A DNA stretch of 56,842 nucleotides, from positions 1-56,842 of the forward strand of contig CAZNBR010000003.1 in assembly GCA_964571315.1 (NCBI GenBank). The letters are read 5' to 3'. The notes beneath the pieces are model-generated. The model did no database searches and had not been told where the DNA came from. It saw nothing but the letters and a program-made list of their open reading frames with translations. The stretch comes from an uncultured Syntrophaceae bacterium (GTDB taxonomy: Bacteria; Desulfobacterota; Syntrophia; Syntrophales; UBA2210). Made by a program: the position numbers and the translations under genes. Positions 2,313 through 18,021 of the stretch are shown here, piece after piece. How positions within the stretch are numbered: the stretch's first letter is position 1; each line of letters starts with the position of its first letter.

Positions 2313-2314
2313 TC

Positions 2315-3358
2315 ATGGCAAATCGACAAGTAACACTGGACGTCAGCGACAACATCATCGCCGCTGCGGTTATGTCTCAGAATTTTTGGGCGATAAAGAA
2401 TCTGCGGCTCATTGAACCGCACGCCGCCGGGGACAACACATGCGTGGTTGTTAATCCCGGTGCAAATTACGTTCCCATCGACATTGGCGCTCATTGGTTT
2501 TTAATGGACTCCGCCGTAGAAGTTGACTCTGTTGACGATCTGGACACCGGCGCTCTGGCGGCGGGTACTGACTATTACGTTTATGCCTGTACGGACGGCA
2601 CAACGATTTCATTCCTGGTTTCAGCCAACTCAACCAACCCAACCGGCTTCGATGCTGCTCATTCCCGCAAGATCGGAGGATTTCACACGCTGTGTGTTGC
2701 TGTAGGGGCTATCGGTGGACACACACTTACCGGATACGTCGCTAATGATATTCTGCCCGCATCTGTGTGGTGTCTGAAGCACCGGGCAAAGACCTTGGTC
2801 AATGTCGGAATGGTGTATGACAGCGGGATCCAGAAGTGGGTGGACATATATATGGCCTCCGGAACAGGGACGGGTACAACCTCCGCCAACGGCGCGACCG
2901 CCTCCGACACCCGCGACTGGAATGACTTCGTGGATGATGGTCATGCGGTGGGTAAACGGCTACCGACAGATGCAGAATTCCAGAGATTTGCCGCGGGATC
3001 AAACGAAGAGACCAATATTTCAACAAGCGCAGACCCCGTTACCACTGGCGGACATTCCGATACGGCCGCTCGTCGAATGATCTCCAACATTGGGTGCGAG
3101 GACTGCTGTGGGGCCTGGAATCAGTGGCTGGATGAGCAGTCTGCGATGTACGATGATGCAGTTGCAGCGGGATGGTATGACCTGCCCGGTTCCAAAGGTC
3201 AATTATACCGTCCAGTGGACACAAATGACGTTAAGCTGATCGCCGGGGGCAATTGGGTCAATGCCGCGATTGCCGGTTCTCGGTGCCGGGATGCGGGTTA
3301 CTATCGCTGGACTGCGAATGCGGCTCTCGGCGCGCGCTTCGTTGCGGAGCCGTTATAA
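2315..3358 (+). CDS. DGR target 1: Mtd-like receptor-binding protein with C-terminal C-type-lectin/FGE-type fold
   Basis: Motifs GGFHTLC, WVDIY, GKRLPTDAEF, RRMISNIGCEDCCG and GGNW...GSRCR...GARFVAEPL. The 3' end is a VR matching the TR. Confidence 0.9.
   Translation: MANRQVTLDVSDNIIAAAVMSQNFWAIKNLRLIEPHAAGDNTCVVVNPGANYVPIDIGAHWFLMDSAVEVDSVDDLDTGALAAGTDYYVYACTDGTTISFLVSANSTNPTGFDAAHSRKIGGFHTLCVAVGAIGGHTLTGYVANDILPASVWCLKHRAKTLVNVGMVYDSGIQKWVDIYMASGTGTGTTSANGATASDTRDWNDFVDDGHAVGKRLPTDAEFQRFAAGSNEETNISTSADPVTTGGHSDTAARRMISNIGCEDCCGAWNQWLDEQSAMYDDAVAAGWYDLPGSKGQLYRPVDTNDVKLIAGGNWVNAAIAGSRCRDAGYYRWTANAALGARFVAEPL
3235..3348 (+). repeat. DGR variable repeat VR1
   Basis: 114-bp ungapped match to the TR with 13 mismatches, all at TR adenines (e.g. 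aac>gtc, aat>att, aat>gat, aat>ggt, aac>tac, acg>gcg, aat>gct, atc>ctc). Confidence 0.97.
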
Positions 3359-3437: not shown

Positions 3438-3551
3438 GCTGATCGCCGGGGGCAATTGGAACAATGCCGCGAATGCCGGTTCTCGGTGCCGGAATGCGAA
3501 TAACTATCGCTGGAATACGAATACGAATATCGGCGCGCGCTTCGTTGCGGA
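3438..3551 (+). ncRNA. DGR template repeat (TR)
   Basis: Non-coding copy between target and RT, with 10 AAY codons in the target frame and 25 adenines before the terminal gcgga. It diverges from the VRs after gcgga (tacagg versus gccg), i.e. IMH* versus IMH. Confidence 0.97.
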
Positions 3552-3699: not shown

Positions 3700-4728
3700 A
3701 TGAAACGACACAGTAACTTATATCAAGTAATCACAAGCGAAGAGAATGTGCGGGAATCCTGGTTGGAAGCCCGGCGGGGCAAATCAAGCAAAAGTGCAGT
3801 GCGTCGTTTTGAGCGGGATCTGGATCGGAATCTTCAGCAGATCCGGGAATTACTGATCAACAAAACTTACAAGCCATCTCCCTACACGACCAAGATGATT
3901 CATGAGCCCAAGACGCGGCTCATCTACATCCTGCCGTTCGCGCCGGATCGTGTCATCCATCATGTGTTGATGCGGGTAATCGAGCCGATCTGGGAGGGAT
4001 TGTTTATTTCCGATTCCTACGCCTGTATCAAAGGCAAAGGATTGCACGGGGGCAGCAGACGGACTATGGAGTTTGTCCGCAGGAATCGATATTGCCTGAA
4101 GATGGACATCTCGAAATTCTACCCGTCAGTTGATCACGACATCCTCTATGATATCATTCAGCGCAAGATCAAATGCGTTGACACGCTCTGGCTGTTCCGG
4201 AAGATCATCTACAGCATCCCGGACGGGAAGAATGTCCCGATCGGAAACTATACCAGCCAATGGATGGGCAATCTCTATCTGAACGAGCTGGATTACTTTG
4301 TCAAACATTCCTTGCGCGTCAAGGATTATGTCCGATACTGCGATGATTTCTGCCTGTTCCATAATGACAAAAAGCACCTGGCCCGGCTCGCTTCCGAAAT
4401 CGAAACATTCCTGGCCGATACCCTGGCTTTAAAACTCAGCAAGAACTCAGTTTTCCCCGTTACTCAAGGGGTTGATTTCCTGGGCTATCGACACTTTCCA
4501 ACCCACATACTGTTGCGGAAATCCACGACAACAAGAATACGCCGGCGGTTACGCAGATTGCCATCAGCACTAGCGGATGGTCACATCAGTTTTGAATATT
4601 TCCGGTCCTGCATCGCTTCCGTCAAAGGGTGGATGCGCTGGGCTAACACACACCATCTACGACTCGCCATGGAATTAGCGGCGCTGGAAAGGATTGTGGA
4701 AAATGGAGGAATCGCCAAAGCGGTTTAA
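3700..4728 (+). CDS. DGR reverse transcriptase
   Basis: Motifs EPKTRLI, DRVIHH, SYACIKGKG, KMDISKFYPSVDH, PIGNYTSQW (DGR-type SQ), YVRYCDDF and DFLGY. ~342 aa with no maturase or endonuclease domain, adjacent to the TR. Confidence 0.96.
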   Translation: MKRHSNLYQVITSEENVRESWLEARRGKSSKSAVRRFERDLDRNLQQIRELLINKTYKPSPYTTKMIHEPKTRLIYILPFAPDRVIHHVLMRVIEPIWEGLFISDSYACIKGKGLHGGSRRTMEFVRRNRYCLKMDISKFYPSVDHDILYDIIQRKIKCVDTLWLFRKIIYSIPDGKNVPIGNYTSQWMGNLYLNELDYFVKHSLRVKDYVRYCDDFCLFHNDKKHLARLASEIETFLADTLALKLSKNSVFPVTQGVDFLGYRHFPTHILLRKSTTTRIRRRLRRLPSALADGHISFEYFRSCIASVKGWMRWANTHHLRLAMELAALERIVENGGIAKAV

Positions 4729-5008
4729 AGATTTTGCCAAAGAGCATGTGCCACTGGATGGCGCGAAACTGAAAATTGACGATATATTGAATAAGGAAAT
4801 AATGGTGATCGGATTCCGAGTCAAAGATAGTAAGTTCATCAAGGCTAACGCACCGACATGCCTGACCATACAGTTCACGCTGGGTGATGAACGACACATA
4901 GCATTTACCGGGAGTCAGGTGTTGCTCGATCAATGCAGGTCCTACGAAACCGAGATCCCGTTTCTGGCCACAGTAAAGAAGGTGGATAAGTATTATACGT
5001 TTACGTAA
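4703..5008 (+). CDS. Small beta-rich protein overlapping the RT 3' end (candidate DGR accessory factor)
   Basis: 101 aa, overlaps the RT stop. Alternating hydrophobic strands (EIMVIGF, LTIQF, HIAFTGS, PFLATV, YYTF), unlike helical Avd. Confidence 0.7.
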   Translation: MEESPKRFKDFAKEHVPLDGAKLKIDDILNKEIMVIGFRVKDSKFIKANAPTCLTIQFTLGDERHIAFTGSQVLLDQCRSYETEIPFLATVKKVDKYYTFT

Positions 5009-6027: not shown

Positions 6028-6039
6028 GGAGGAACAATC

Positions 6040-6486: not shown

Positions 6487-6566
6487 AAACACTTGGACCT
6501 TTACCTGTGGTGAGTTTATTGCTCTATATATAGTTGATTATAAATAGTATTATACTAAAGCGCATA

Positions 6567-6612
6567 ACTCTTAATCAGTAGGTTCGGGGTTCGACTCCCC
6601 GGCGGCTCACCA
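6567..6612 (+). other. attP core: 3' half of tRNA-Lys(CTT)
   Basis: actcttaatcagtaggttcggggttcgactccccggcggctcacca contains the anticodon loop CTCTTAA, the T-arm GGTTCGAC and a CCA end. The 5' half of the tRNA is absent, and the integrase is adjacent. Confidence 0.88.
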
Positions 6613-6617
6613 ATAGT

Positions 6618-6649
6618 AAGGGGTTGCGAGTATTCGTAACCCCTTTTTT
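6618..6649 (+). terminator. Rho-independent terminator after the attP tRNA fragment
   Basis: aaggggttgcga-gtat-tcgtaacccctt followed by a T-run. Confidence 0.8.
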
Positions 6650-6720
6650 CTTACCACACTCACCACATCTCACCACGGACGTTTTTTTGTGGTGACTTAT
6701 GATGATGAAGGAGGAGGAGA

Positions 6721-7734
6721 TTACTTATTGAGGTGATCTACGGCTTGTCTCATGGTTGCCATTGATACGTGCGCGTAGATCTGTGTGGTAAGAACAGATC
6801 GATGCCCGAGTAGCTTTTGAATTATTCTTATGTCGGTTCCAGCATCAAGTAAATGACTGGCAAAACTGTGTCTGAATTGATGTGGAGTGACTTTCTTTTC
6901 TATCCCCGCATTCTTTAATGCCGTCTTCAATGGCGTGCGTATGTCTGTCAGGGCCCCGTCCAGCTCCTTACCATTTTTTTTCGTCATCCGCGACGGGAAT
7001 AGCCATTTGCCAGTCATGTCTAAATCGGCCAGTATCGCTCTCAGATCGTCCACAACGGGCACAATCCGCTCCCGGCCTCCCTTTCCCCTTATCCGCAGGT
7101 AACTCTTGTCCTGGGCTAAATCTGACGGTTTCAGATGCGTTACTTCATCCTTCCTCAACCCGCAGTAATACATTGTGGCAAACAAGGCTCGAGTTGTTCC
7201 GGGCATGGCGGAAAGAATACTCACCACCTCACCACAATTCAAAGTGCTCGGAAGCTTCTTCTTAAATGGCAGAGCTTCGAATTTTTCCGGCAGGGAGCAT
7301 AGGTTTTGCTTTGCTCCCCATTTGATCATGGCGGAAAGGCAGAGCAGTTCAAGGTTGATTGCCCGATTGACTGTGGGCCTTGTCGTGGTTTCCTTCCTGT
7401 GTTTCTTGTAGGCGGTAATAATGTTGCTGTTGATGAAATCGGGCTGCATATTGCCAAAAAAGGGCAGTATGCGATTCCAGAACATCATCTTTTTTTCTTT
7501 CAGGGTTTTTGGCGACTGCTGCATCTCAACCCATTTGAGGTATTCTGCCGCGATCATGTCGCAGGTGTGGGCCCCGTGTTTCGCGGGCTTGTGGAATTGC
7601 TTCTTTAATTCTCTCTCATAGGCAAGGGCTTCATCGCGCGCGCCGTGATAGGTGAGCATGTGCCGGGGGCTGTCCCTTCCGCCCTCTCGGAAATCGATGG
7701 TATGCTTATTTGATGACTGTGATCGGACTGACAT
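6721..7734 (-). CDS. int: Tyrosine recombinase / phage integrase
   Basis: Catalytic motifs GLRKDE, GKGGRER, HQFRHSFASHLL and LGHRSVLTTQIY, adjacent to attP. Confidence 0.95.
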   Translation of the reverse strand: MSVRSQSSNKHTIDFREGGRDSPRHMLTYHGARDEALAYERELKKQFHKPAKHGAHTCDMIAAEYLKWVEMQQSPKTLKEKKMMFWNRILPFFGNMQPDFINSNIITAYKKHRKETTTRPTVNRAINLELLCLSAMIKWGAKQNLCSLPEKFEALPFKKKLPSTLNCGEVVSILSAMPGTTRALFATMYYCGLRKDEVTHLKPSDLAQDKSYLRIRGKGGRERIVPVVDDLRAILADLDMTGKWLFPSRMTKKNGKELDGALTDIRTPLKTALKNAGIEKKVTPHQFRHSFASHLLDAGTDIRIIQKLLGHRSVLTTQIYAHVSMATMRQAVDHLNK

Positions 7735-8011
7735 TTATCCTACCCAGTCTTGCGCTTCTGTCTCTCGTAGAGATTTGGATTCGATGGATACGATCCGGCT
7801 CATTATAATTTTATCCTTTAGTTGGCGTTCAGCTTTTTTTTGATTTGTCCCAAGTCCAGTACACGGCGGCAAAAGTAGCCATGCTTACGATGATCCGCAA
7901 CCAAGCAGCCTCAGGCCAAGCTTCTTTTACCAACGTATAAATCACCACTCCCAAAAAAAAGACACCCAACGAAAACAGCCACTGTTTCATGATTTTCCCC
8001 TTGTTCTCTCT

Positions 8012-8248
8012 TTATCTTGGGATTGTCTTTATACAGTCACCGGTAGCCCAGTCCCACTTCACGCATTCATCATCTGATGATAAATCCATATAGAGTCCAA
8101 ACGAACTCAAAATTAAGACTGCGAATATAATAAAAACAGGCACCCCAATCAAACACCCGATGTAAGCCCACCCACCCGATATTTTGAATCGGCTGACGAG
8201 AAAAAAGAAACCAACATAAGATCCTATGACAATCAGAAATAATGGCAT
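8012..8248 (-). CDS. Small membrane protein in the lysogeny operon (possible superinfection exclusion)
   Basis: Two hydrophobic helices and a C-terminal C-x8-C pair, co-oriented with repressor and integrase. Confidence 0.5.
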   Translation of the reverse strand: MPLFLIVIGSYVGFFFLVSRFKISGGWAYIGCLIGVPVFIIFAVLILSSFGLYMDLSSDDECVKWDWATGDCIKTIPR

Positions 8249-8347
8249 GTATTACTCACGCATGTATTACTCACGCTTATCTTTTTCCATTCATATTAAT
8301 CTGGGCGCTGGCGATACTCCCAACTGCAAGGTGCGCAGCAAATTTCC

Positions 8348-8839
8348 TTAATGCGTCTTAAAACATACATGGAAAATGTTTTTTTCACACCGGAACTCTA
8401 TTATGCGGTTGAACCGCCGCCGGTATGATGGTTTAAATTTCTGATCCTTTTTTCTTCTTTCATTTTTTTTGTTTTCGTCACGCCTCGTCACTGACGTCTC
8501 AAATGCGTCGATATTCTGCAACAGTGCAGTAGCCGTTTTTTCATCTCCGGACTCGAGTATTTTTTTCACCGCCTTACATGCCTTCTGAGTTTCCTCCGTC
8601 CATCCGCACATGAAATTCTCACCGGGATCAACACCGGTTAACAGCCAATCGAAAGAGCAGTTAAATATCTCACATATCTTAGATATTGCATCGAAATTTG
8701 GGTTGATTCCCGGTTTTTTCCATCGCGTGAAAGCATCCCTCTGACTAATTTTATCGTTAAATACACGTTCAACACCCTGACAATGCATATCAGTTAATAG
8801 CCTTATATTATTAAGGAATGTATTTTTGTTATATTTCAT
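8348..8839 (-). CDS. CI-like HTH repressor
   Basis: XRE-type tail TRWKKPGINPNFDAISKICEIFNCSFDWLLTG. Divergent from the early operon. Confidence 0.8.
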   Translation of the reverse strand: MKYNKNTFLNNIRLLTDMHCQGVERVFNDKISQRDAFTRWKKPGINPNFDAISKICEIFNCSFDWLLTGVDPGENFMCGWTEETQKACKAVKKILESGDEKTATALLQNIDAFETSVTRRDENKKNERRKKDQKFKPSYRRRFNRIIEFRCEKNIFHVCFKTH

Positions 8840-8890
8840 ACAAATTTCTCGTATATTTTGCTTGACACATACAATATATTTGTGTACTTA
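8838..8890. promoter_or_regulatory. Divergent switch region: two 17-bp operator-like imperfect palindromes and a rightward promoter
   Basis: atacaaatttctcgtat (8838-8854) and atacaatatatttgtgt (8869-8885). TTGACA at 8862; the -10 element is non-consensus. Confidence 0.55.
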
Positions 8891-8940
8891 TTCATTTCAT
8901 CGTCATTATTTCTTTAAATCTTTAACCAAGGAGGTCGGTC

Positions 8941-9084
8941 ATGAACACGTGGCAACGTTTTCTCGATGAAACCATTCCTTCCCGCGAAGAGCAGGAAGAA
9001 CTCCGGCATTTTTTTGGAGAGCATCTCATGTGTCGCCCCCAGCCGGAGACGTCCGCAGCATCGTTTGATACAGACCTGAGTTGA
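8941..9084 (+). CDS. 47-aa first early gene (resembles a D5/P4-type helicase segment)
   Basis: Strong AAGGAGGT RBS. Translation MNTWQRFLDETIPSREEQEELRHFFGEHLMCRPQPETSAASFDTDLS. Confidence 0.6.
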   Translation: MNTWQRFLDETIPSREEQEELRHFFGEHLMCRPQPETSAASFDTDLS

Positions 9085-9158
9085 GCCATGCGCGGATTCC
9101 CTCTTTCTGTCCACGCAATTATCTTCCGAAAAACCTTTCAGAAAGGATTTGAATAAAT

Positions 9159-9419
9159 ATGTCTGATCTGGTCACAGGGCACCTCCCTGACATCAATGAG
9201 CTTAGAAAAAACATTAAAATAAGAATGATCGAGCTCGGTCTCGATAATCATAAAACTGGCGGATATCGTGGACTCCTTCCGCAATTGAGTGAGCATACGG
9301 GGAGGCGCATCAGCGCGCAGATGCTTTCCAACGCGATCACCGGCTACCAGTCCGGGAAATCGGCTCACGATCTCCTGGCATCGATGAAAGAGATTCTGGA
9401 TTCTCTGCCGCAGGAATAG
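9159..9419 (+). CDS. Cro-like DNA-binding protein
   Basis: 86 aa with HTH-like ISAQMLSNAITG, divergent from the repressor. Confidence 0.6.
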   Translation: MSDLVTGHLPDINELRKNIKIRMIELGLDNHKTGGYRGLLPQLSEHTGRRISAQMLSNAITGYQSGKSAHDLLASMKEILDSLPQE

Positions 9420-9501
9420 GGCTTAATCATTCTATTGGTGTAATTATACACGAAGATAATGGGGAAATCAAATATTTGTCGATTGGTGAGGAATCTGTCT
9501 T

Positions 9502-10104
9502 ATGAAATGTCATACTAAAGATACCGAAAGCCCACGGAACACGTACCGGATGTCACCGGAGGTGAAAGCCGCTCTTATCGCCGATTTACAGTCGAGCCCG
9601 AATCTGTGCATAGATAAGTCGCTGGCTTTGGAATACGACTACAGCGAAAAGTCTATTGAGAAAATCAGGCGTGATCATACACATATCAGATTCACATCGG
9701 GTAAAAACGACCACCTGCCGCTGGCTCTCAAAGAAACGCTCATAACGCTGGTTGATCCATCAAAAAAATTGAATCTGTCTGAACTCGCCCGGGTGCATAA
9801 CTGCCGGGAGTCAACGCTATCCGGCATCCGGAGAAAATATTACGGCCGGCAGCGCCAGGCCACCCTCCTCGCTGCCGATCGGTTTCCCTACCTCTCAATT
9901 CTCAGGCGTGCGCTGGAACCCTACCGCATCGCCGCGACAAACCTTGGCATGCCGCTCGACGACGTGCTGCAGGCGTTCGCGGAATACAAAAGAATTCAAA
10001 AGATATTCGGGGCCACTGCCATGGAAGACGGAGATAACATCTCCGCCGGACGTGTCCCAATTTTAAACACATGGAAGGAGGAAGCCATATCATGTTCAGG
10101 TTAG
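9502..10104 (+). CDS. Hypothetical protein with tandem HTH-like segments
   Basis: Segments DKSLALEYDYSEKSIEKIRR and LSELARVHNCRESTLSGIRR. Confidence 0.55.
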   Translation: MKCHTKDTESPRNTYRMSPEVKAALIADLQSSPNLCIDKSLALEYDYSEKSIEKIRRDHTHIRFTSGKNDHLPLALKETLITLVDPSKKLNLSELARVHNCRESTLSGIRRKYYGRQRQATLLAADRFPYLSILRRALEPYRIAATNLGMPLDDVLQAFAEYKRIQKIFGATAMEDGDNISAGRVPILNTWKEEAISCSG

Positions 10105-10448
10105 ACAAAGACGTTATCGTCCAGAGCGCCATAGAGAAGAAAAAAGAGGAAATGCTGGGGGACTTGATGGTCTCCGCCGGTACACTCAAAAAACGCGCCT
10201 GGGAATTTCAAAACAACTCCTGCGAGGAAACGCTGGACAACCTCTGCGAGTGCATGGCCGCCATGGTCTTAACGCTGAACCAGGCCATCGTCGTCACGTC
10301 GGTACACAAGACCTTCAACCATTTCAAAAAAAAGATGGCGACACTCAAGGCATCTACGAATGCGTGTACAGAGGCTGTCTCAATCAACACAATACCACAC
10401 ACCCAAGCTGAGGGTGGGGAGGCACAAAACCATGTTGCTGCATCTTGA
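10071..10448 (+). CDS. Hypothetical helical protein
   Basis: ORF overlapping its neighbours in the early operon. The true start may be the ATG near 10092 after AAGGAGG. Confidence 0.5.
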   Translation: MEGGSHIMFRLDKDVIVQSAIEKKKEEMLGDLMVSAGTLKKRAWEFQNNSCEETLDNLCECMAAMVLTLNQAIVVTSVHKTFNHFKKKMATLKASTNACTEAVSINTIPHTQAEGGEAQNHVAAS

Positions 10449-10812
10449 ATCGATCAGACAATCGCCCTGGCATAAGGTGCTCAGTATCGCTGATTACCTC
10501 TGGGTATGGGCCTGTCTCATGATCATAGCATCGAGCCTGGTTGTTTGTCTCATAGGCATTGCCTGTGAACTGTTGAAACAATGGGGGATGGCATGAATTC
10601 CTACCTGAAAAGAAACGAAGTAAAAGAAAACCGGTGGCATACATGGCTTATCGTGCTGCTGGTGGTACTGGCACTTATCTATTATTCACCGGGCCTTCTT
10701 CGATTCTTTTCTTCACTCATCACTCCTTTACAGGGGCCGACCCTGTGCCTCGGCGAAAGCGGAAACAGGGCATTTAAAATGGTGCCGCAACAGATGGCAC
10801 ACAGGTGCAACA

Positions 10813-11016
10813 ATGCGCTTAAGAAACAAGTATTGCGTGACCCTGAACATCGCCGGAGAGGTATTTGACATATATCTCCATGCCAGCGATCCGGACCGGG
10901 CTGAAACGCTCTCCCGGATCCGCGTTGCAAAACAAAAGGGTCTGATCCCCAGCCCCTGGGCTGTCAGGGTCAGTGATTGCAGGGTCAGATTAATTGAACA
11001 TCGGGTCCAGTCATAG
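10813..11016 (+). CDS. Hypothetical protein
   Basis: 67-aa ORF in the early operon. Confidence 0.4.
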   Translation: MRLRNKYCVTLNIAGEVFDIYLHASDPDRAETLSRIRVAKQKGLIPSPWAVRVSDCRVRLIEHRVQS

Positions 11017-11077
11017 GGAAGGGCTCGATACCGAAAGTCTTTAAAACGGCCTATCCAGCGCCACAGGGATAGGCACT

Positions 11078-11287
11078 ATGAAAGGCACTACCGCAATGAG
11101 TAATATCGAAGAACAGATGCGCACCATGGAAAAGAAAATTGATATCGTCCTGGGTATCCTGGGCTACGGCAGGACAAAGTCACACACCCAGATACAACGA
11201 GAGGCAGGGGAGACGGTTAAACGGCTGCATTTGATGGCCTTACAGAGAGAAAAGAAGAAGGAGGCTAAAGGTGACGATGGTAATTAA
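11078..11287 (+). CDS. Hypothetical protein
   Basis: 69-aa ORF overlapping the next gene. Confidence 0.5.
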   Translation: MKGTTAMSNIEEQMRTMEKKIDIVLGILGYGRTKSHTQIQREAGETVKRLHLMALQREKKKEAKGDDGN

Positions 11288-11648
11288 TCCAAAGGAAAAC
11301 CAAGATAACCAAGAATGGCAGGGCAAGACGGGTCCCGGAATATACGAGGTCACCGGCGCCGCGATCGGGCAGCTGGTGGACGTCAAGAACAAAGCATATG
11401 GCCGGGCGTTTGACTTTGCCGGATCCATCCTCGCAATTCTTTATCCCAACGGCATTCGACCCGAACAGTATAAAGACCTGGGCGCGATGATCCGCATTCT
11501 CGACAAATTCTTTCGTATTGCCACTTCCAAAGATGCTCTGGGCGAGTCGCCCTGGACAGATGTCGCCGGTTATGGGTTGCTAATGAATCGGGGTTATCTT
11601 CCACCAGCTGGAGAAGCTATTGTCCGGGGACAAAATGATGAGCGATGA
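11271..11648 (+). CDS. Hypothetical protein, DUF1599 / nucleotide-modification-associated-like
   Basis: Pattern KNKAYG...RILDKFFRI...DVAGYGLL recognised by eye. Confidence 0.5.
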   Translation: MTMVINPKENQDNQEWQGKTGPGIYEVTGAAIGQLVDVKNKAYGRAFDFAGSILAILYPNGIRPEQYKDLGAMIRILDKFFRIATSKDALGESPWTDVAGYGLLMNRGYLPPAGEAIVRGQNDER

Positions 11649-11895
11649 TAATTCGAGGAAAATGAAATATCTGGAGATTGTCACGATCGGCCAAGGTCCG
11701 GATCTGGCCAAGGGCATGCTGACTGTAACCATCGCATTGAAGGATGACAAGGGAGAATCATATTACACGCACCTGGTCACGCGAGACAATTATGCTCACT
11801 CAACCCGGAAGACTATAGAGCGGCTAAGTCGGGTGAAATTTCCGCCAGTGCCTGATTCTGGTAACGAAATTGTCAAAATCAATCAAACGAAATGA
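11620..11895 (+). CDS. Hypothetical protein
   Basis: ORF coupled to both neighbours (ATGA overlap with the next gene). Start uncertain. Confidence 0.5.
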   Translation: MSGDKMMSDDNSRKMKYLEIVTIGQGPDLAKGMLTVTIALKDDKGESYYTHLVTRDNYAHSTRKTIERLSRVKFPPVPDSGNEIVKINQTK

Positions 11896-12125
11896 AACAA
11901 ATAAAGATCAAACCCGGAATCGTCATTTTGTCCCCCTGGTACAACACCAGGGAGGCGGCGGCGCACTGCGGTATGGCCCGGTCGACATTCATGTATAAGG
12001 CGCATATCACGGGACTACCCAGCGCAGGCGACGTGAGGAATAAACGATACAAGGTTGAAGACCTGGACCGATGGATCAGCAATGGTTTTCGGTATCCGGG
12101 AATGGAGAATAGCAGCAGCGGCTGA
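11892..12125 (+). CDS. Excisionase-like / AlpA-MerR-type HTH protein
   Basis: WYNTREAAAHCGMARSTF...RYKVEDLDRWI. Confidence 0.7.
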   Translation: MKQIKIKPGIVILSPWYNTREAAAHCGMARSTFMYKAHITGLPSAGDVRNKRYKVEDLDRWISNGFRYPGMENSSSG

Positions 12126-12168
12126 ATGCCGTGATCATTAATAAGTTAAAAAAATAAGGAGGTCGGAA

Positions 12169-12876
12169 ATGAATTTACTGCCAGGACAAGATTACATTAT
12201 TACAGAAAATTTGACGTTAAAGGTCGAGGATTCGAAGGATCAAGGCGCAATAGGTGGATTTCACACACTGTGCGCTGATGTCGGAAATATTCCCGGTCAT
12301 CCGTTAAGCGGATTTTATGCCGGTGATCCGATACCATATTCGCTGTGGAATCAGCATCACCGGGCGGGATGTAAAAGCAATGCCGGAATGGTGTATGACG
12401 ACGTTCGAGATTTGTGGGTTGATATCTACCTTTTTTCTTCCGCAAACCGAAATATCATCCATGAAACATTGGAGAATTACAAGGATATCGGAATGAGGTG
12501 TGGGAAGCGGTTGCCCACCCACGAGGAATTCTCATCACTCGCCGAGGGCTCCAACGAATTGACTAATATCCGGGGAAGCAAATACACTCCCATATCTGGT
12601 GGAAATATCGATACCCAGGGACGGCGGATGATCAGCAATATCGGATGCGAGGACTGTGCGGGACTGATATGGCAATATCTGTTATCTTTAGATCCAGCCG
12701 ATCCCGAATATACGCTGTTCGCCGGGGGCTATTGGAACGATGCCGCGAATGCCGGTTCTCGGTGCCGGAATGCGAATAACTATCGCTGGACTGCGTATAC
12801 GAGTCTCGGCGCGCGCTTCGTTGCGGAGCCGCTTTTTCCGCGAGAACGACGCATACAAGAAAACAAAGAACTATAG
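12169..12876 (+). CDS. DGR target 2 (remote), stand-alone Mtd-like C-type-lectin-fold protein, copy A
   Basis: TAAGGAGG RBS. Shares GGFHTLC, GMVYD, WVDIY, GKRLPT and RRMISNIGCEDC with target 1, and contains VR2. Confidence 0.9.
   Translation: MNLLPGQDYIITENLTLKVEDSKDQGAIGGFHTLCADVGNIPGHPLSGFYAGDPIPYSLWNQHHRAGCKSNAGMVYDDVRDLWVDIYLFSSANRNIIHETLENYKDIGMRCGKRLPTHEEFSSLAEGSNELTNIRGSKYTPISGGNIDTQGRRMISNIGCEDCAGLIWQYLLSLDPADPEYTLFAGGYWNDAANAGSRCRNANNYRWTAYTSLGARFVAEPLFPRERRIQENKEL
12714..12827 (+). repeat. DGR variable repeat VR2 (copy A)
   Basis: 114-bp match to the TR with 8 mismatches, all at TR adenines. Followed by the same gccg IMH end as VR1. Confidence 0.95.
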
Positions 12877-13010
12877 AGCGAGTATCATCGCGCTTTTTCC
12901 TGCACCATTCGCAGACGAGGAGAGTCGGCATTGCTATTATACTCGCTATTTTTCAATCCGGGAGAGGTGTGTGAAATCCGCAATAAGTTAAAAAAATAAG
13001 GAGGTCGGAA

Positions 13011-13718
13011 ATGAATTTACTGCCAGGACAAGATTACATTATTACAGAAAATTTGACGTTAAAGGTCGAGGATTCGAAGGATCAAGGCGCAATAGGTGGA
13101 TTTCACACACTGTGCGCTGATGTCGGAAATATTCCCGGTCATCCGTTAAGCGGATTTTATGCCGGTGATCCGATACCATATTCGCTGTGGAATCAGCATC
13201 ACCGGGCGGGATGTAAAAGCAATGCCGGAATGGTGTATGACGACGTTCGAGATTTGTGGGTTGATATCTACCTTTTTTCTTCCGCAAACCGAAATATCAT
13301 CCATGAAACATTGGAGAATTACAAGGATATCGGAATGAGGTGTGGGAAGCGGTTGCCCACCCACGAGGAATTCTCATCACTCGCCGAGGGCTCCAACGAA
13401 TTGACTAATATCCGGGGAAGCAAATACACTCCCATATCTGGTGGAAATATCGATACCCAGGGACGGCGGATGATCAGCAATATCGGATGCGAGGACTGTG
13501 CGGGACTGATATGGCAATATCTGTTATCTTTAGATCCAGCCGATCCCGAATATACGCTGTTCGCCGGGGGCTATTGGAACGATGCCGCGAATGCCGGTTC
13601 TCGGTGCCGGAATGCGAATAACTATCGCTGGACTGCGTATACGAGTCTCGGCGCGCGCTTCGTTGCGGAGCCGCTTTTTCCGCGAGAACGACGCATACAA
13701 GAAAACAAAGAACTATAG
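13011..13718 (+). CDS. DGR target 2, copy B (identical protein)
   Basis: Translation identical to 12169..12876. Confidence 0.8.
   Translation: MNLLPGQDYIITENLTLKVEDSKDQGAIGGFHTLCADVGNIPGHPLSGFYAGDPIPYSLWNQHHRAGCKSNAGMVYDDVRDLWVDIYLFSSANRNIIHETLENYKDIGMRCGKRLPTHEEFSSLAEGSNELTNIRGSKYTPISGGNIDTQGRRMISNIGCEDCAGLIWQYLLSLDPADPEYTLFAGGYWNDAANAGSRCRNANNYRWTAYTSLGARFVAEPLFPRERRIQENKEL
13556..13669 (+). repeat. DGR variable repeat VR2 (copy B)
   Basis: Identical to 12714-12827. Confidence 0.85.
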
Positions 13719-13772
13719 AGCGAGTATCATCGCGCTTTTTCCTGCACCATTCGCAGACGAGGAGAGTCGGCA

Positions 13773-16316
13773 TTGCTATTATACTCGCTATTTTTCAATC
13801 CGGGAGAGGTGTGTGAAATCCGCGCAATCGGCGCCCAGGGGAAAAATCCCGGCTGGGAGGGTTTTGCCAGGTCGGTTGTCTCAGGATACTATGATTCTCC
13901 AGAGGCTTTCGAAACAGGGGCTGGAATTCTTGACAAGGCCCAGAGCCGCGGCGTCTATTTCACCATCAATCCCGGAAACCCTGCGCTTATTGCGCGGGCA
14001 GTCAATCGTTTAAAAATTCCGAAAAGCACAACACAGGACGCGGACATCGTCTGCATTCGGTGGCTGCCGATCGACCTGGATCCAAAACGACCCGCGGACA
14101 TTTCCTCGACGGAAACTGAGGTTCAGGCAGCAACGGCCGTCGGAAAAGAGATCGCCAACTGGCTGGAAGGTGATCTCGGCTTTGGAAAGGCGATCCGGGC
14201 CTATTCCGGGAATGGTTTCCACTTGCTCTATCGCCTTCCGGACCTGCCGAACAACGAAGAAACCCACACAATCATCGTCGCCGCGATGGCGGCAATTAAG
14301 ACCAAATATGACAGTGATACGGTGGATATTGATCCGGCCGTCGTGAATCCAGCCCGGATCTGGAAGTGCTATGGGACCACAGGAAGAAAGGGCGATCCCA
14401 CGACTGACCGTCCACACAGAAAATCACAATTATTCCCAAAACAACCCTCCGTTCTGGCCGACGTGCCAATTACAAACCTGGACACTTTGAAGAAACTTGC
14501 AGCGCTGGTCCCGCAGACTTCGACGAAGAGGAGTTCTCCGCAGGCTACTGCCGCGGAAGCGGCTTCTACAAAAACAGCCGGTGCCGTGCCTTTTAAGGAC
14601 GGCACGCTGGGACCAATCAACATGGAGGCATATCTGGGCCACTACGGCATCGGCTACACGACAAAGACAAAGGGTGCACAGACGCTCTATTGCCTCGATC
14701 AGTGTTTATTTAATCCGGATCACGACCAGGGCCAGGCCTCAATCATGACATCGCCGACCGGGCCGCTGATCTACCAATGTTTCCATTCCTCCTGTAAGGA
14801 CAAGCGGTGGAAGGATGCCCGGGCACGGATATCCGGTGACAAGCCTATATCGGAATTCTGCGCCGGATTTGACCCGAATTGGACACCACCAAAACAATCA
14901 GGAACGGGTGCTATGGCTGACATCCTTGTCCGATCGGAACTGTCCGTGCAGAGCACGGCGGCAGTGAAGGTACCCGAGAAGATGGATCCAGCGGAGTTCT
15001 TCGAGAAACGAGGGAAGCGGCCGGTATTCGTGCCGATGTATCTGGCACGGTATCTGGCCGCCTACCTGGAGCCTCTTGTCCATACTGCAGGTGGTTTCTG
15101 GCGCTACGAAAAAGGAGTATGGAAGCCTTTTGCAGACACTATTTTATCGCAAATCATGGTGGCTGTGATGAAAGAACGTGTGCAGGCAGACATGATGACA
15201 AATACCTTGAAGATTCTTCGGGGACTGATTAACCGCGAAGAAGATTCGTGGCCCAAAGACATGAACCTGATCAATGTGAAAAACGGGATGCTGGACATCC
15301 GGACAATGGAACTGATTCCACACGATCCAAAATACGGAAGCCGGACGCAGTTGCCGGTCAACTACAACGCATCGGCCTTCTCACAACAATGGTGGGATTT
15401 CCTCAAGGAGATCTTCCCGGAGGATGAAAATTCCGCGAAGAAGTGGCTCCTGCAACAGTTTTTTGGCTATTGTCTGCTACGCGACTGCCGGTATCAGAAA
15501 GCTTTGTTTTTGTACGGGACGGGCGCGAACGGGAAATCCACTGTACTATATTGCCTCCAGGCGATGGTCGGGAGGGAGAATACATCGTCACTTTCTCTGG
15601 CGGATCTCACGCAGCGTTTTAAAGCGCAATTCCTGCGCGAAAAATTGATCAATCTGGCAACAGAGACGAACACACGGGATCCCCTGGCCACTGAACTCCT
15701 GAAGGCAATCATCTCCGGTGATCCGATCACGGCGGAGCAGAAATATGGGGAGCAATTTCAATTTCGTCCATTCGCGAAGTTTATCACGGCAATGAACGAT
15801 GCTCCGGTGATCCCGGATAAGAGTTATGGATTCGGTCGAAGGATCATTGTGCTGACCTTCGAAAAACGCTTTACCGATGAGGAGATCAAGCCGCGGATGG
15901 CCGATTCCCTCATCGAGGAGATCGAGGGGATTTTCAATTGGTCGGTCGAAGGATTGAAGATTCTGTTGAAAAACGATGGGTTTCTTATTCCTGATTCAGT
16001 TGGTAAAGCTACAAACGATTTCATGGAAACGCTGAACCCCCTGCTGATCTTTGTAAATGAAATGTGTGCGGTCCATGACGCCGAATCCGTTCGGACCATG
16101 GACTTATGGGATTGCTATGCAGAATGGTGTGCCGACGGGAAGAACCGCCCTCTGGGCCGGAATCGCTTCCTTGACCAGGTGCGGCAAACCTTCCCACGGG
16201 TTAGCTCCGCAAAAGTGGGCGAAGCACGGGTGAGGATGATGGTTGGTATCGGCCTGACGGCACATGCCCAAACATGGACGGAGGAGAGAAAAGCGCGCTT
16301 CCGCAGGCGGGATTAG
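13773..16316 (+). CDS. Primase-polymerase (AEP-like) fused to D5/P4-type SF3 helicase
   Basis: N-terminal IDLDP and SGNGFHLLY motifs, a Cys/His cluster (CLFNPDH...CFHSSC), INVKNGML, Walker A GTGANGKS and RRIIVLTF. GAGGAG RBS before the TTG. Confidence 0.9.
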   Translation: MLLYSLFFNPGEVCEIRAIGAQGKNPGWEGFARSVVSGYYDSPEAFETGAGILDKAQSRGVYFTINPGNPALIARAVNRLKIPKSTTQDADIVCIRWLPIDLDPKRPADISSTETEVQAATAVGKEIANWLEGDLGFGKAIRAYSGNGFHLLYRLPDLPNNEETHTIIVAAMAAIKTKYDSDTVDIDPAVVNPARIWKCYGTTGRKGDPTTDRPHRKSQLFPKQPSVLADVPITNLDTLKKLAALVPQTSTKRSSPQATAAEAASTKTAGAVPFKDGTLGPINMEAYLGHYGIGYTTKTKGAQTLYCLDQCLFNPDHDQGQASIMTSPTGPLIYQCFHSSCKDKRWKDARARISGDKPISEFCAGFDPNWTPPKQSGTGAMADILVRSELSVQSTAAVKVPEKMDPAEFFEKRGKRPVFVPMYLARYLAAYLEPLVHTAGGFWRYEKGVWKPFADTILSQIMVAVMKERVQADMMTNTLKILRGLINREEDSWPKDMNLINVKNGMLDIRTMELIPHDPKYGSRTQLPVNYNASAFSQQWWDFLKEIFPEDENSAKKWLLQQFFGYCLLRDCRYQKALFLYGTGANGKSTVLYCLQAMVGRENTSSLSLADLTQRFKAQFLREKLINLATETNTRDPLATELLKAIISGDPITAEQKYGEQFQFRPFAKFITAMNDAPVIPDKSYGFGRRIIVLTFEKRFTDEEIKPRMADSLIEEIEGIFNWSVEGLKILLKNDGFLIPDSVGKATNDFMETLNPLLIFVNEMCAVHDAESVRTMDLWDCYAEWCADGKNRPLGRNRFLDQVRQTFPRVSSAKVGEARVRMMVGIGLTAHAQTWTEERKARFRRRD

Positions 16317-16377
16317 AATGAGAGACAATCATTGCACTATGCAAAACCGCATCATAACAACTGAAAGGAGTAAAAAA

Positions 16378-18021
16378 ATGGAAGGAGAATTCAGACATAT
16401 TAACCTGGCAGAGATCACGCCCAACCCTATGAACCCGCGCAAACGGTACAAGGGCGCCGCCTTCGACGAACTGGTTCTATCCATATCCGAAAAAGGCGTC
16501 ATCGAACCCATAGTCGTGCGGCCTGCAAAGGTCGGATTTCAGATCGTGGCAGGGGAGCGTCGCTTCAAGGCCTCCATCATCGCCGCCCAGAAAAACGGCG
16601 GGAAAGAGTCGGCGACGATCCCGGCCATAATCCGCAATTACAACGATGACGACGTCTTCGACGTCATGGTCATCGAAAACCTGCACCGGGAAGATCTCTC
16701 GCCCCTCGAGCAGGCACGCTGTTTCAAGAAATACCTCGACAAAAAGGGGCATGAAGCCCTTCCCGAACTGGCGGAACGAACCGGAATCAACATCTGCTAT
16801 ATCCGGCGGCGCATCAGGGTACTTACCCTGCCAAAAGAAATACTGAAAGACTGGGACGATGAAACACTGCTCTACGGCCACCTGGAACAATTCATGAGAC
16901 TCGATTCCAAAGACGAAATTCTCAACTTCTATGAGGAACTAAAAGACCACTGGGGCGGATTACCCACTGTGAAAGAACTGAGGGACAGAATAAATAACAG
17001 ATCACCGCAGTTAGAGTGGGCCCTCTTTGACCGGGAAGCGGCCGGCTGCACCATATGCAACTTCAACTCCGATATCCAGCTGACCCTCTTTGCCACCGAT
17101 AACGGCGTCGACGATGCCATCTGCACCAACGCCCCCTGTTTCAAGGCAAAGCAGGCCGAATGGCTCACGGCCAACTGGAAAAAGACCGGCACATACAAAC
17201 AAAACAAAACGACCGGTTTCCGCTTTAACGACGACGTACAGCACGACATGTACAACGTTCAGCATAACCCGAAAAAGGTGTGTAAGACATGTCAGTCATT
17301 TCTGACAGTAATCGGCCTCGACGGAAAAGGAAGGTTTCCTTCAATGGCCTGTTTCGGCGATGAAGAATGTTTCAAAACAAAAGAAAACCTACAAGATGGA
17401 GAATCAGGGAACGCGGCTAAAGGACCGCCCGATTGGCACGGCACATATTTCCGGGAAAAATTCTATCGGCAGCGTATCCCCGAAGTAACAGCGGATCTCA
17501 CCTTTGACGAAAAGATACAGCGCGTCTTGCTCCTGTCGGTGCTCCACTCCAACGCCGAGGCACGAGACACATTTTTAAAGCACCACTGTGGAAAAAAAGG
17601 ATGGTTTAGAAATTACCAGATATTTGAAGAAATCAAGGGAATGTCTCCAGACGATGTGCGTGCGGAACTAAAAACCGCTGCGATCAGTATACTCCTGCAG
17701 GAAAACATGGGGTCCGCCGCCAGGCATCACGCCGGCGCCTTCTTCGGCATCGAACTCGAAAAAGAATGGACCATGGACGAGGAATATCTCGGTAAAAAGA
17801 CAATCAAAGAGATCCTGTCACTCGGCGAATCCCTGGGCATATTCGCCGAACCCACGGTAAAGGCCTACCTGGAAGAGACGCTTATAAAGAAGCAGGGCAG
17901 GTTTGACACCTGCAAAAAGAGCGAACTGATAGACTGCATACTCAAATCAGGCGTGGACCTGACAGGCCGCCTCCCCGAAGAAATCACAGTCAAGAAAGGA
18001 GGTAAAGACAATGGGGAATGA
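16378..18021 (+). CDS. ParB/RepB/Spo0J-family protein with Cys-rich C-terminal region
   Basis: NPRK, GVIEPIVVR, IVAGERRFKA, ENLHREDLSPLEQA and an HTH. AAGGAG RBS before ATG 16378. Confidence 0.88.
   Translation: MEGEFRHINLAEITPNPMNPRKRYKGAAFDELVLSISEKGVIEPIVVRPAKVGFQIVAGERRFKASIIAAQKNGGKESATIPAIIRNYNDDDVFDVMVIENLHREDLSPLEQARCFKKYLDKKGHEALPELAERTGINICYIRRRIRVLTLPKEILKDWDDETLLYGHLEQFMRLDSKDEILNFYEELKDHWGGLPTVKELRDRINNRSPQLEWALFDREAAGCTICNFNSDIQLTLFATDNGVDDAICTNAPCFKAKQAEWLTANWKKTGTYKQNKTTGFRFNDDVQHDMYNVQHNPKKVCKTCQSFLTVIGLDGKGRFPSMACFGDEECFKTKENLQDGESGNAAKGPPDWHGTYFREKFYRQRIPEVTADLTFDEKIQRVLLLSVLHSNAEARDTFLKHHCGKKGWFRNYQIFEEIKGMSPDDVRAELKTAAISILLQENMGSAARHHAGAFFGIELEKEWTMDEEYLGKKTIKEILSLGESLGIFAEPTVKAYLEETLIKKQGRFDTCKKSELIDCILKSGVDLTGRLPEEITVKKGGKDNGE

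What the first reader, a model, noticed from the sequence alone, without database searches (positions are those of the whole stretch)
12169..12876. One phage DGR template diversifies a second, remote, non-structural target inside the early/replication operon
Seen: VR2 (12714-12827) matches the TR (3438-3551) over 114 bp with 8 mismatches, all at TR adenines, and ends in the same IMH (gcggagccg) as VR1. VR2 keeps TR adenines where VR1 is mutated and is mutated at five codons where VR1 differs or is unmutated, so the two were diversified independently. The gene lies ~9 kb from the RT, between an excisionase-like gene and the primase-helicase, with its own strong RBS. It lacks roughly the first 80 residues of target 1, has no signal peptide, and has a 13-aa charged extension after the VR. 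Known: phage DGRs such as BPP-1 diversify tail receptor-binding proteins, and multi-target DGRs exist. Inference: a hypervariable, probably cytoplasmic ligand-binding protein expressed early points to a job other than tropism switching, such as an evolvable binder of host defence or replication factors, receptor blocking, or a reservoir of alternative VR alleles.
Basis: partly seen in the sequence, partly recalled or inferred. Interest (0 to 1): 0.92.

Follow-up and report, generated by a model that had tools for sequence, protein, structure and literature searches.

The report
Second DGR target beside phage primase
A temperate phage uses one mutagenic retroelement to diversify both its tail-tip protein and a shortened copy of that protein encoded among its early replication genes, a rare but already reported kind of arrangement whose purpose is still unknown.

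Summary
VR2 (12714-12827) differs from the TR (3438-3551) at 8 positions, all 8 at TR adenines (26 A in 114 nt; P about 3e-6). It shares the GCGGAGCCG end with VR1.

The gene, T2 (235 aa), is an N-terminally truncated Mtd-like C-type-lectin protein. It lies between an HTH gene and a D5-type primase-helicase in the rightward early operon of a circular temperate tailed-phage contig.

VR2 is an active target, not a fossil:
- Related contigs keep HTH-T2-primase and carry other adenine-restricted VR2 alleles.
- One relative's non-adenine TR change is copied into both of its VRs.
- dN/dS is 0.15-0.28 outside the VR and 1.4-7.0 inside it.
- T2 belongs to an old, separate clade of short forms.

Independent contigs from three runs, and all relatives, show only the single-copy form.

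A non-virion role fits the gene position, the lost N-terminal domains and the absence of export signals, but it is untested. Distant second targets in phages, including a putatively non-structural one in Quimbyvirus, are already in print. I rate this a new variant of a known kind.

The parts
2315..3358 (+). Target 1 (T1), 347-aa Mtd-like variable protein next to the DGR core
   Evidence: Pfam mtd_2nd E 2.1e-25, residues 56-153; weak FGE-sulfatase hit. Falls in the long-form clade as P0078.
3235..3348 (+). VR1
   Evidence: 13 of 13 mismatches to the TR at TR adenines.
3438..3551 (+). Template repeat (TR); 26 A in 114 nt
   Evidence: Differs by 1 nt (G49C) from the TR of relative L007.
3700..4728 (+). 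Reverse transcriptase
   Evidence: Pfam RVT_1 E 3.6e-15. All NCBIfam RT matches are below their cut-offs.
4694..5008 (+). 104-aa ORF overlapping the RT 3' end; candidate DGR accessory gene
   Evidence: A homologue starts within 400 nt of the RT end in 66 of 72 fetched loci that have a full RT match. No Pfam, NCBIfam or PDB match.
6721..7734 (-). Tyrosine integrase
   Evidence: Pfam Phage_integrase E 9.2e-33.
8348..8839 (-). Repressor-like regulator, divergent from the early operon
   Evidence: PHROG transcriptional regulator/repressor families, E 1.7e-7 to 4.9e-5.
11892..12125 (+). Small HTH protein (AlpA/excisionase-like) just upstream of T2
   Evidence: Pfam HTH_17 E 1.6e-5, 25.5 bits against a cut-off of 27. 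Homologue upstream of T2 in L007/L113, L112, L114 and L117.
12140..12981 (+). Tandem duplication unit, copy 1. Runs from 29 nt before the T2 ATG to codon 17 of the primase frame.
   Evidence: Exact 842-nt identity with 12982-13823.
12169..12876 (+). Target 2 (T2), 235-aa truncated Mtd-like CLec protein
   Evidence: 46% identity to T1 residues 113-347. Family profile versus Mtd: E 5e-14, T2 11-234 matching Mtd 100-376. AF2 pLDDT 85.3; top fold match Mtd, E 2.2e-12.
12714..12827 (+). VR2
   Evidence: 8 of 8 mismatches to the TR at adenines. A contig from another run differs from the window at three further TR-adenine positions.
12982..13823 (+). Tandem duplication unit, copy 2
   Evidence: The junction 12981|12982 was seen in 0 of 4 runs laid.
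13011..13718 (+). Second, identical T2 copy, with VR at 13556-13669
   Evidence: 100% identical protein.
13773..16316 (+). D5-type primase-helicase
   Evidence: Pfam D5_N, DUF5906 and Pox_D5. The L007 orthologue is 87% identical from residue 2, so this start is conserved.
16264..18021 (+). ParB-like protein
   Evidence: Pfam ParB_N E 1.5e-22 and HTH_ParB.

Best explanation
The contig is a circular temperate tailed phage with one DGR (TR plus RT) that rewrites two kinds of target.

T1 is a full-length Mtd-like protein at the end of the tail module. T2 is a paralogue that keeps only the last strands of the Mtd sandwich domain and the C-type-lectin domain.

T2 is encoded 9 kb away, packed between a small HTH gene (43-nt gap) and the primase-helicase (54-nt gap) in the rightward early/replication gene array. 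TR cDNA is copied in trans into VR2, guided by the same VR end (GCGGAGCCG) as VR1, with adenine-specific errors.

Shown:
- T2 is an active target.
- Its scaffold is under purifying selection.
- It belongs to an old, separate short-form clade.
- It keeps its place beside the primase in related phages.

Inferred:
- It has lost the N-terminal domains of the tail-fibre-tip protein Mtd.
- It has no export or membrane signal.
- It is probably co-transcribed with early genes.
- It is therefore most likely a soluble hypervariable binding protein made early, outside the virion, and acting on a variable host (or competitor) ligand.

My odds: active second target 0.9; functional protein 0.9; non-virion early role about 0.5-0.55.

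The exact tandem duplicate in this assembly is probably a recent or minority variant, not a fixed three-VR design.
For: Target status:
- 8 of 8 TR/VR2 mismatches fall at adenines, P 2.8e-6.
- The VR end is shared with VR1.

Activity in the lineage:
- Relative L007 (=L113; about 78-83% nucleotide identity, syntenic) has its own TR, differing from the window's at one non-adenine site (G49C). Both its VR1 and its VR2 carry that C. Its VR2 has 18 of 18 mismatches to its TR at adenines.
- Measured against the window's TR, 14 of 17 VR2 differences in L112 and 17 of 23 in L114 fall at TR adenine positions.
- A contig of run X3 reads TGCTATGC where the window has AACGATGC and the TR has AACAATGC. All three differences are at TR adenines.

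Selection: dN/dS outside the VR is 0.24, 0.28 and 0.15. Inside the VR it is 7.0, 3.4 and 1.4 (window versus L007, L112, L114).

Family:
- About 40 clusters of 207-274 aa at 46-75% identity.
- In a tree of the pre-VR scaffold, 39 of 40 proteins of 280 aa or less, plus two of 305/306 aa, form one side of a branch with SH-aLRT 100. T1 lies on the other side (quick tree).

Fold and truncation:
- Profile match to Mtd residues 100-376.
- AF2 pLDDT 85.3, with Mtd as the top five PDB fold matches, TMq 0.66-0.69.
- No Pfam mtd_2nd hit in T2, unlike T1.

Position:
- Terminase, portal and head genes lie at 23-30 kb. Integrase and repressor are on the minus strand at 6.7-8.8 kb. A plus-strand array from 9159 runs through HTH, T2, primase and ParB.
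- A primase homologue lies downstream of T2 in 4 of 4 distinct related contigs with at least 1 kb of downstream flank: L007/L113, L112 and L114 adjacent; L008/L115 after one 260-aa ORF.

No export signal: 0 of 33 family members have a 19-aa window above 1.6 on the Kyte-Doolittle scale.
Against: - No direct evidence of expression timing, localisation or virion absence.
- T2's only family label is PHROG 'tail protein' (phrog_11262, E 4.1e-38), and its only solved relative is a receptor-binding protein. A virion role therefore remains natural.
- Synteny is not universal. L116 (54% identity) has no homologue of any of 40 window proteins in its 2.3 kb upstream. L125 and L128 (42-49%) show no window neighbours either.
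- No T2-like gene was found in 200 other genomes sampled from the MAG's order at E <= 1e-20, so the host link is unconfirmed.
- The X3 variant rests on 8 letters at the end of one low-depth contig.
- In L112 and L114 the TR is not on the contig, so their non-adenine differences (3 and 6) cannot be assigned.
- The tree is the quick search; the careful one did not finish.
Confidence: 0.55

Rival explanations
1. T2 is an ordinary second receptor-binding or adhesin protein of the virion that happens to be encoded outside the structural module. It would dock to the tail by its short N-terminal strands or its basic C-terminal tail, giving the phage a second, independently tunable specificity.
For: - Homology and fold match only to Mtd and to PHROG 'tail protein'.
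- Published two-target phage DGRs are mostly read as two receptor-binding proteins (PMC10743442, passages read; bioRxiv 10.1101/2024.10.15.618418, passages read; PMC8143477, passages read).
- VR2 differs from VR1, as two specificities would require.
Against: - T2 lacks about 92 N-terminal residues, including most of the Pfam mtd_2nd domain that T1 has.
- It sits tightly between an HTH gene and the primase, in the array divergent from the repressor and more than 9 kb from any structural gene. Relatives keep it there.
Confidence: 0.3
2. VR2 is a decaying or functionless by-product: a pseudo-target hit in trans because it kept the VR end, or merely a store of alternative VR alleles for T1.
For: - T2 is a truncated paralogue.
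- In the window VR2 has fewer substitutions (8) than VR1 (13).
- VR1 and VR2 share three identical substitutions near the 3' end.
Against: - The frame is intact in the window and in the three orthologues tested, L007, L112 and L114, with dN/dS 0.15-0.28 outside the VR.
- The family is old, monophyletic and widespread, with about 40 clusters.
- The 4 shared mutated positions equal the chance expectation of 4.0.
Confidence: 0.04
3. On the duplication only: the phage really carries two T2 genes in tandem in most genomes, so one TR serves three VRs. The collapsed single-copy contigs would then be the artefact.
For: - The junction sequence (unit end joined to unit start) shares at most about 5 nt with either flank, so an assembler could not invent it. 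Some molecules must carry it (inference).
- A 1645-nt contig (L128) carrying another short-form gene closes on itself with an exact 127-nt terminal overlap. That is a cyclic or tandem assembly path.
- Identical VRs in the two copies prove nothing, because a short-read graph collapses them (inference).
Against: - 0 of 4 runs laid show a contig across the junction.
- In 3 of 4 runs (X1, the possible source; X3; and the RNA run X11) a contig runs from 12981 straight into the sequence that follows copy 2.
- An X1 contig of 9264 nt passes 12140 without a break.
- All 4 distinct relatives with the right flank carry one copy.
- The unit cuts the primase frame at codon 17, so it looks like a chance duplication.
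Confidence: 0.15

Closest known systems
Bordetella phage BPP-1 DGR and its target Mtd (PDB 1yu0-1yu4, 2iou)
   Same: - One TR and RT with adenine-specific mutagenesis of a C-terminal VR in a C-type-lectin fold.
- VR and TR ends differ (the IMH versus IMH* idea).
- The T2 family profile matches Mtd at E 5e-14, and the T2 model superposes on Mtd at TMq 0.66-0.69.
   Different: - BPP-1 has a single target adjacent to the cassette.
- T2 starts at about Mtd residue 100 and so lacks the N-terminal domains.
- T2 lies in the early/replication array.
- No Avd was recognised; a conserved 104-aa ORF follows the RT instead.
- The Mtd domain boundaries and its tail-fibre-tip location are recalled, or taken from the introduction of PMC5758913.
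Quimbyvirus ('Quimbyviridae') DGR with two targets (Benler et al. 2021, PMC8008677; passages read)
   Same: One phage DGR diversifies a target beside the tail genes and a second CLec target distal to the structural module. The authors read the second as a non-structural protein engaged in phage-host conflict.
   Different: - There the second target is on the opposite strand, in an island with a nuclease, methyltransferases and a tRNA ligase. Here it is co-directional with, and wedged between, an HTH gene and the primase.
- No recognisable counter-defence neighbours were found among those scanned.
- T2 is a truncated paralogue of T1 from an old short-form clade.
- Different habitat: lake-water metagenome runs.
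Non-adjacent targets of phage-associated DGRs (Wu et al. 2018, PMC5758913); Bacuni phages (PMC8143477); Toutatisvirus (bioRxiv 10.1101/2024.10.15.618418); tentaclin phages (PMC10743442); passages read for all
   Same: A second VR-bearing gene kilobases from the TR/RT within the same phage, diversified from the same TR.
   Different: Those second targets are read as receptor-binding, fimbrial-tip-like or head-decoration proteins, or are left unassigned. In the passages I read, none is placed in the replication gene array or described as an N-terminally truncated Mtd.

Membership tests
DGR variable (target) protein | VR/TR repeat pair whose differences are restricted to TR adenines | tested here: met
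   VR2 8 of 8, VR1 13 of 13, P 2.8e-6 and 2.4e-10. L007 VR2 18 of 18.
DGR variable (target) protein | A reverse transcriptase gene beside the TR in the same replicon | tested here: met
   RVT_1 E 3.6e-15 at 3700-4728, 149 nt after the TR. Placement in the DGR clade of RTs was not tested by phylogeny. RT homologues (53-91% identity among rows printed) lie next to Mtd-like targets in 72 fetched loci.
DGR variable (target) protein | VR at the C-terminal end of a C-type-lectin fold | tested here: met
   VR2 encodes residues 182-220 of 235. The AF2 model matches the Mtd CLec domain. pLDDT is below 50 over residues 188-209, the variable loop.
DGR variable (target) protein | VR-specific 3' end (IMH) that differs from the TR end (IMH*), plus a downstream inverted repeat | tested here: inconclusive
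   VR1 and VR2 share GCGGAGCCG where the TR has GCGGATACA. A GCGGA...TCCGC-type pairing can be drawn by eye in the window, L112 and, shorter, L114, but not in L007. It overlaps conserved coding sequence, so it cannot be separated from protein constraint. Function is not testable here.
DGR variable (target) protein | Evidence of ongoing TR-to-VR information transfer | tested here: met
   The non-adenine TR change G49C of L007 is present in both its VR1 and its VR2. VR dN/dS is 1.4-7.0 against 0.15-0.28 in the scaffold.
DGR cassette | Accessory protein Avd (or HRDC or another recognised class) | tested here: inconclusive
   Only the 104-aa post-RT ORF was scanned, with no Pfam, NCBIfam or PDB match. 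It is conserved beside the RT in 66 of 72 loci. The small ORFs over the TR were not scanned.
Mtd (major tropism determinant) family | Homologous CLec domain | tested here: met
   hmmsearch of profile A2 against Mtd, E 5e-14. Foldseek E 2.2e-12.
Mtd (major tropism determinant) family | N-terminal domains (Pfam mtd_2nd and what precedes it) | tested here: not met
   T2 has no Pfam hit, while T1 hits mtd_2nd at E 2.1e-25. T2 aligns from T1 residue 113 and Mtd residue 100.
Mtd (major tropism determinant) family | Encoded with, and assembled onto, the tail fibres | not testable with these tools
   Gene position argues against it. Virion presence needs proteomics.
Quimbyvirus-type non-structural second DGR target | Second VR gene distal to the structural module | tested here: met
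   T2 lies 9.2 kb from the TR. The nearest structural-type genes are T1 (ends 3358) and the terminase (from 23032).
Quimbyvirus-type non-structural second DGR target | Embedded among defence or counter-defence genes | tested here: not met
   Neighbours scanned are HTH, primase-helicase, ParB, DUF5131, DUF5662 and small ORFs without hits. PADLOC was not run.

The most novel reading that the evidence does not exclude
T2 and its short-form family are DGR-evolvable intracellular binders: an antibody-like early phage protein whose hypervariable lectin face is continually re-drawn to bind fast-evolving host immunity or replication factors, or a competing phage's proteins. On this reading a phage uses targeted hypermutation for counter-defence or host takeover as well as for adsorption. 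The tandem duplicate would then be a snapshot of copy-number expansion of such a binder.
Probability: 0.2. Interest if true: 0.9.

Novelty: new variant of a known kind. Interest (0 to 1): 0.55.

Why it matters
Phage DGRs are understood almost wholly as tropism switches. A conserved, selected, actively diversified target that has shed its tail-attachment domains and travels with the primase gene would extend the single published hint (Quimbyvirus) that phages also aim hypermutation at non-virion functions. It would extend that hint to a different phage lineage and habitat.

It also offers a compact test case. T2 is a 235-aa protein with about 40 homologue clusters and a known scaffold, so it suits pull-downs and expression-timing work.

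Practically, it shows two limits of current pipelines:
- DGR surveys limited to RT-adjacent VRs miss such targets, as Roux et al. state for their own pipeline (PMC8144416).
- Short-read assemblies can hide or create copy-number differences at target genes.

Tried and rejected
- Homotrimer test: complex prediction with 3 copies of T2 (alignment A2) returned 'no answer'. It is not used for or against anything.
- The first AF2 model, built from the 33-row alignment, was poor (pLDDT 60.4). It was replaced by the 120-row model.
- A single-protein scan of viral contigs found no close relative. The profile scan did.
- The 'phages' collection gave only one distant record, BK063673.1 (host given as Methanosarcinales). 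Its hit is a T1-like tail protein next to an RT, and the record has no T2-like gene beside a primase.
- The genome-contig scan returned 25 loci. All are T1-like or distant; none is a close short form.
- Searching 200 other genomes of the MAG's order found no T2 at E <= 1e-20.
- RNA run X11: contigs lie on T1, on pieces of 9340-11849 and on the T2 3' end into the primase leader. Contigs cannot rank or time genes, the library may carry DNA, and stretches without cover mean nothing. Run X2 gave no information at the right-hand boundary of the duplication unit.
- The promoter and terminator scan gave counts near those of shuffled sequence. The only 'terminator' near T2 is the VR-end hairpin itself.
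- Folding the VR 3' flanks gave no clearly conserved cruciform.
- NCBIfam found nothing for T1, T2, the HTH protein or the post-RT ORF. A PDB sequence search with the post-RT ORF gave only chance-level hits.
- The careful tree search did not finish within the time limit, so the quick tree is reported.
- Supplementary tables of Wu et al. 2018 and Roux et al. 2021 list individual targets and intervening genes. They could not be opened and might contain similar cases.
- The claim that 'a truncated Mtd next to a primase' is not in print rests only on the paper search and on the passages read.
Full report
**What is in the sequence.**
- The window is a whole contig (C3) of a 2.63-Mb, 312-contig MAG. 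Its first 596 nt equal its last 596 nt, so it reads as a circular element of 56,246 bp.
- It is a tailed temperate phage. The large terminase is at 23032-24468, a portal/adaptor at 26019-27965 and the major head protein at 29338-30303. A tyrosine integrase lies at 6721-7734 on the minus strand and a repressor-like regulator at 8348-8839 on the minus strand.
- The DGR core sits at the end of the tail module: T1 (2315-3358, Pfam mtd_2nd E 2.1e-25), VR1 (3235-3348), TR (3438-3551) and RT (3700-4728, RVT_1).
- A plus-strand array starts at 9159, divergent from the repressor. It runs through small unknown ORFs, an HTH protein (11892-12125; HTH_17 at 25.5 bits, just under the 27-bit cut-off), the reported gene T2 (12169-12876), a D5-type primase-helicase (13773-16316) and a ParB-like protein.

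**The observation.**
- VR2 (12714-12827) differs from the TR at 8 of 114 positions, all 8 at TR adenines. The TR has 26 A, so P = 2.8e-6. VR1 shows 13 of 13 at adenines.
- Both VRs end ...GCGGAGCCG where the TR reads ...GCGGATACA.
- The mutated positions of VR1 and VR2 overlap at 4 sites, exactly the chance expectation. This fits independent diversification.
- T2 aligns to T1 residues 113-347 at 46% identity, so about 92 N-terminal residues are missing rather than about 80.
- The RBS, the 13-residue charged tail and the lack of any hydrophobic leader are as described.

- Bases 12140-12981 are repeated exactly at 12982-13823. The assembly therefore holds two identical T2 genes and VRs in tandem.
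- The unit begins 29 nt before the T2 start and ends inside codon 17 of the primase frame. That start is conserved, because the L007 orthologue aligns from residue 2. It therefore looks like a chance duplication, not a cassette.
- I laid Logan contigs of four runs on 2000-13012. None of the 4 shows a contig across the junction.
- In X1 (possibly the source sample), X3 and the RNA run X11, a contig runs from 12981 straight into the sequence that follows copy 2. An X1 contig of 9264 nt passes 12140 unbroken.
- All four distinct relatives with the relevant flank have one copy.
- The junction shares only about 5 nt with either flank, so some reads must have carried it. My inference is that the duplicated form exists, but as a minority or sample-specific variant.
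- The identity of the two VRs is uninformative, because a short-read graph would collapse them anyway.
- Another short-form gene lies on a 1645-nt contig (L128) that closes on itself with an exact 127-nt overlap. That is a second cyclic or tandem path.

**Is VR2 a live target?**
- Yes. L007 (=L113), a 50-55 kb viral contig about 78-83% identical in nucleotides and syntenic from VR1 to beyond the primase, has its own TR. That TR differs from the window's at one non-adenine site (G49C).
- Both its VR1 and its VR2 carry that C, so TR information reached VR2 after the two phages diverged. Its VR2 differs from its TR at 18 positions, all adenines.
- Measured against the window's TR, L112 and L114 VR2 alleles differ at 14 of 17 and 17 of 23 positions that are TR adenines. 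Their own TRs are not on those short contigs.
- An X3 contig ends with three further substitutions, all at TR adenine positions 23, 24 and 26. This is weak evidence: 8 letters from one low-depth contig.
- Between the window and L007, L112 and L114, dN/dS is 0.24, 0.28 and 0.15 over the 180 pre-VR codons, and 7.0, 3.4 and 1.4 over the 39 VR codons.
- T2 is thus a selected protein with a deliberately diversified tip. It is not a fossil or a passive allele store.

**What T2 is.**
- T2 hits no Pfam or NCBIfam model. Its C-terminal half hits PHROG 11262, 'tail protein' (E 4.1e-38).
- A database search found 331 homologues. The top ~40 hits are short (207-274 aa) at 46-75% identity; long T1-like forms of about 320-400 aa with mtd_2nd follow.
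- A profile of 33 short forms matches Mtd at E 5e-14, with T2 residues 11-234 aligned to Mtd 100-376.
- An AF2 model built on 120 sequences has pLDDT 85.3. It is low only over residues 188-209, the variable loop. Its five best PDB fold matches are Mtd variants (E 2.2e-12 to 3.4e-10, TMq 0.66-0.69).
- I built a tree from the pre-VR scaffold only. In it, 39 of 40 proteins of 280 aa or less, plus two of 305/306 aa, form one side of a branch with SH-aLRT 100. T1 lies among 77 long forms on the other side. This is the quick search; the careful one did not finish, and one row was dropped for covering fewer than 120 of the 160 columns.
- The short form is therefore an old lineage, not a recent local copy of T1. 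The near-identity of the two VRs is imposed by the shared TR.
- None of the 33 family members has a transmembrane-like or signal-like hydrophobic window.

**Context in relatives.**
- Among 185 loci fetched, six distinct contigs carry a clear short form (at least 52% identity, matched from residue 1-3). These are L007=L113, L112, L114, L008=L115, L116 and L117.
- Four of them have at least 1 kb downstream, and all four have the primase homologue there. It is adjacent in three and follows one 260-aa ORF in L008.
- The HTH homologue is upstream in L007/L113, L112, L114 and L117.
- Against this, L116 has 2.3 kb upstream with no homologue of any of 40 window proteins. The more distant L125 and L128 show no window neighbours.
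- No T2-like gene was found in 200 other genomes sampled from the MAG's order.

**Mechanism and function.**
- Shown: trans-diversification of VR2 from the single TR; selection on the scaffold; an old conserved family; and a conserved place in the early/replication array.
- Inferred: T2 has lost the N-terminal domains. By recall and by the introduction of PMC5758913, Mtd sits at the tips of the tail fibres. T2 also has no export signal and only 43-nt and 54-nt gaps to its neighbours. It is therefore most likely co-transcribed early and acts as a soluble hypervariable binder outside the virion.
- I put this at about 0.5-0.55. The second-RBP rival gets about 0.3, because every recognisable relative of T2 is a receptor-binding or tail protein.

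**Comparison with what is known.**
- Non-adjacent targets within prophages are described as numerous, typically within 50 kb of the RT (PMC5758913, passages).
- Two-target phage DGRs are described for tentaclin phages (PMC10743442), Bacuni phages (PMC8143477) and Toutatisvirus (bioRxiv 10.1101/2024.10.15.618418).
- Quimbyvirus has a second target distal to the structural module, which the authors read as non-structural and conflict-related (PMC8008677).
- Roux et al. note that their survey could not detect remote targets (PMC8144416).
- In four literature searches and the passages read, I found no description of a truncated Mtd paralogue family beside a phage primase.

**Verdict.**
- This is a new variant of a known kind and of moderate interest. 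Interest would be high only if the non-virion binder role is shown experimentally.

Noticed in passing
window 12140-13823: Exact 842-bp tandem duplication that carries the whole T2 gene and the first 17 codons of the primase frame. Independent contigs from three runs, and all relatives, show the single-copy form.
   Followed up: yes
window 1-596 and 56247-56842; repeats across 1-1174 and 56013-56842: The 596-nt terminal overlap makes the contig circular (56,246 bp). The overlap lies in a repeat-rich gene ending at 1791, with about 369/414-nt repeats and eleven 40-nt copies spaced 45 nt apart. The gene is probably a fibre, so copy number there may be misassembled.
   Followed up: partly
window 40316-54640 (+): A single 4774-aa ORF with ResIII/SNF2-type helicase motifs (about residues 2397-2933) and a RadC-like JAB domain (3385-3496). 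It sits at the end of the structural module and resembles the giant multi-domain 'polyvalent' or anti-restriction proteins of some phages; that resemblance is recalled, not tested.
   Followed up: partly
window 4694-5008 (+): A 104-aa ORF overlaps the RT 3' end. A homologue lies within 400 nt of the RT end in 66 of 72 related DGR loci. No Pfam, NCBIfam or PDB match, and no Avd was recognised. Candidate DGR accessory protein.
   Followed up: partly
window 3454-3534 (TR core), runs X2, X3, X11: Contigs from two DNA runs and one RNA run match the TR core and then continue into the same unlike 3' flank. The RNA contig (depth 9.6) also has two base differences and an unlike 5' flank. A second, related DGR element with a near-identical repeat seems to live in the same lakes and appears in the RNA library.
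   Followed up: no
L128 1-1645: A contig carrying a 265-aa-type short-form gene plus a 202-aa ORF closes on itself with an exact 127-nt overlap (1518-bp cycle). This is another tandem or circular assembly path around a short-form target.
   Followed up: partly
window 21185-21880 (+) and 6721-7734 (-): The phage carries both a serine recombinase (Resolvase domain, E 4.7e-28) and a tyrosine integrase.
   Followed up: no
window 25156-25944 (+): A polynucleotide kinase / phosphatase-like protein (PHROG 505 and 1238) sits between the terminase and portal genes. It may act in nucleic-acid repair or counter-defence.
   Followed up: no
L153 4409-8482: Exact 2034-nt tandem duplication upstream of a T1-like target in an unrelated DGR phage contig. 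Exact tandem repeats recur in these assemblies.
   Followed up: no
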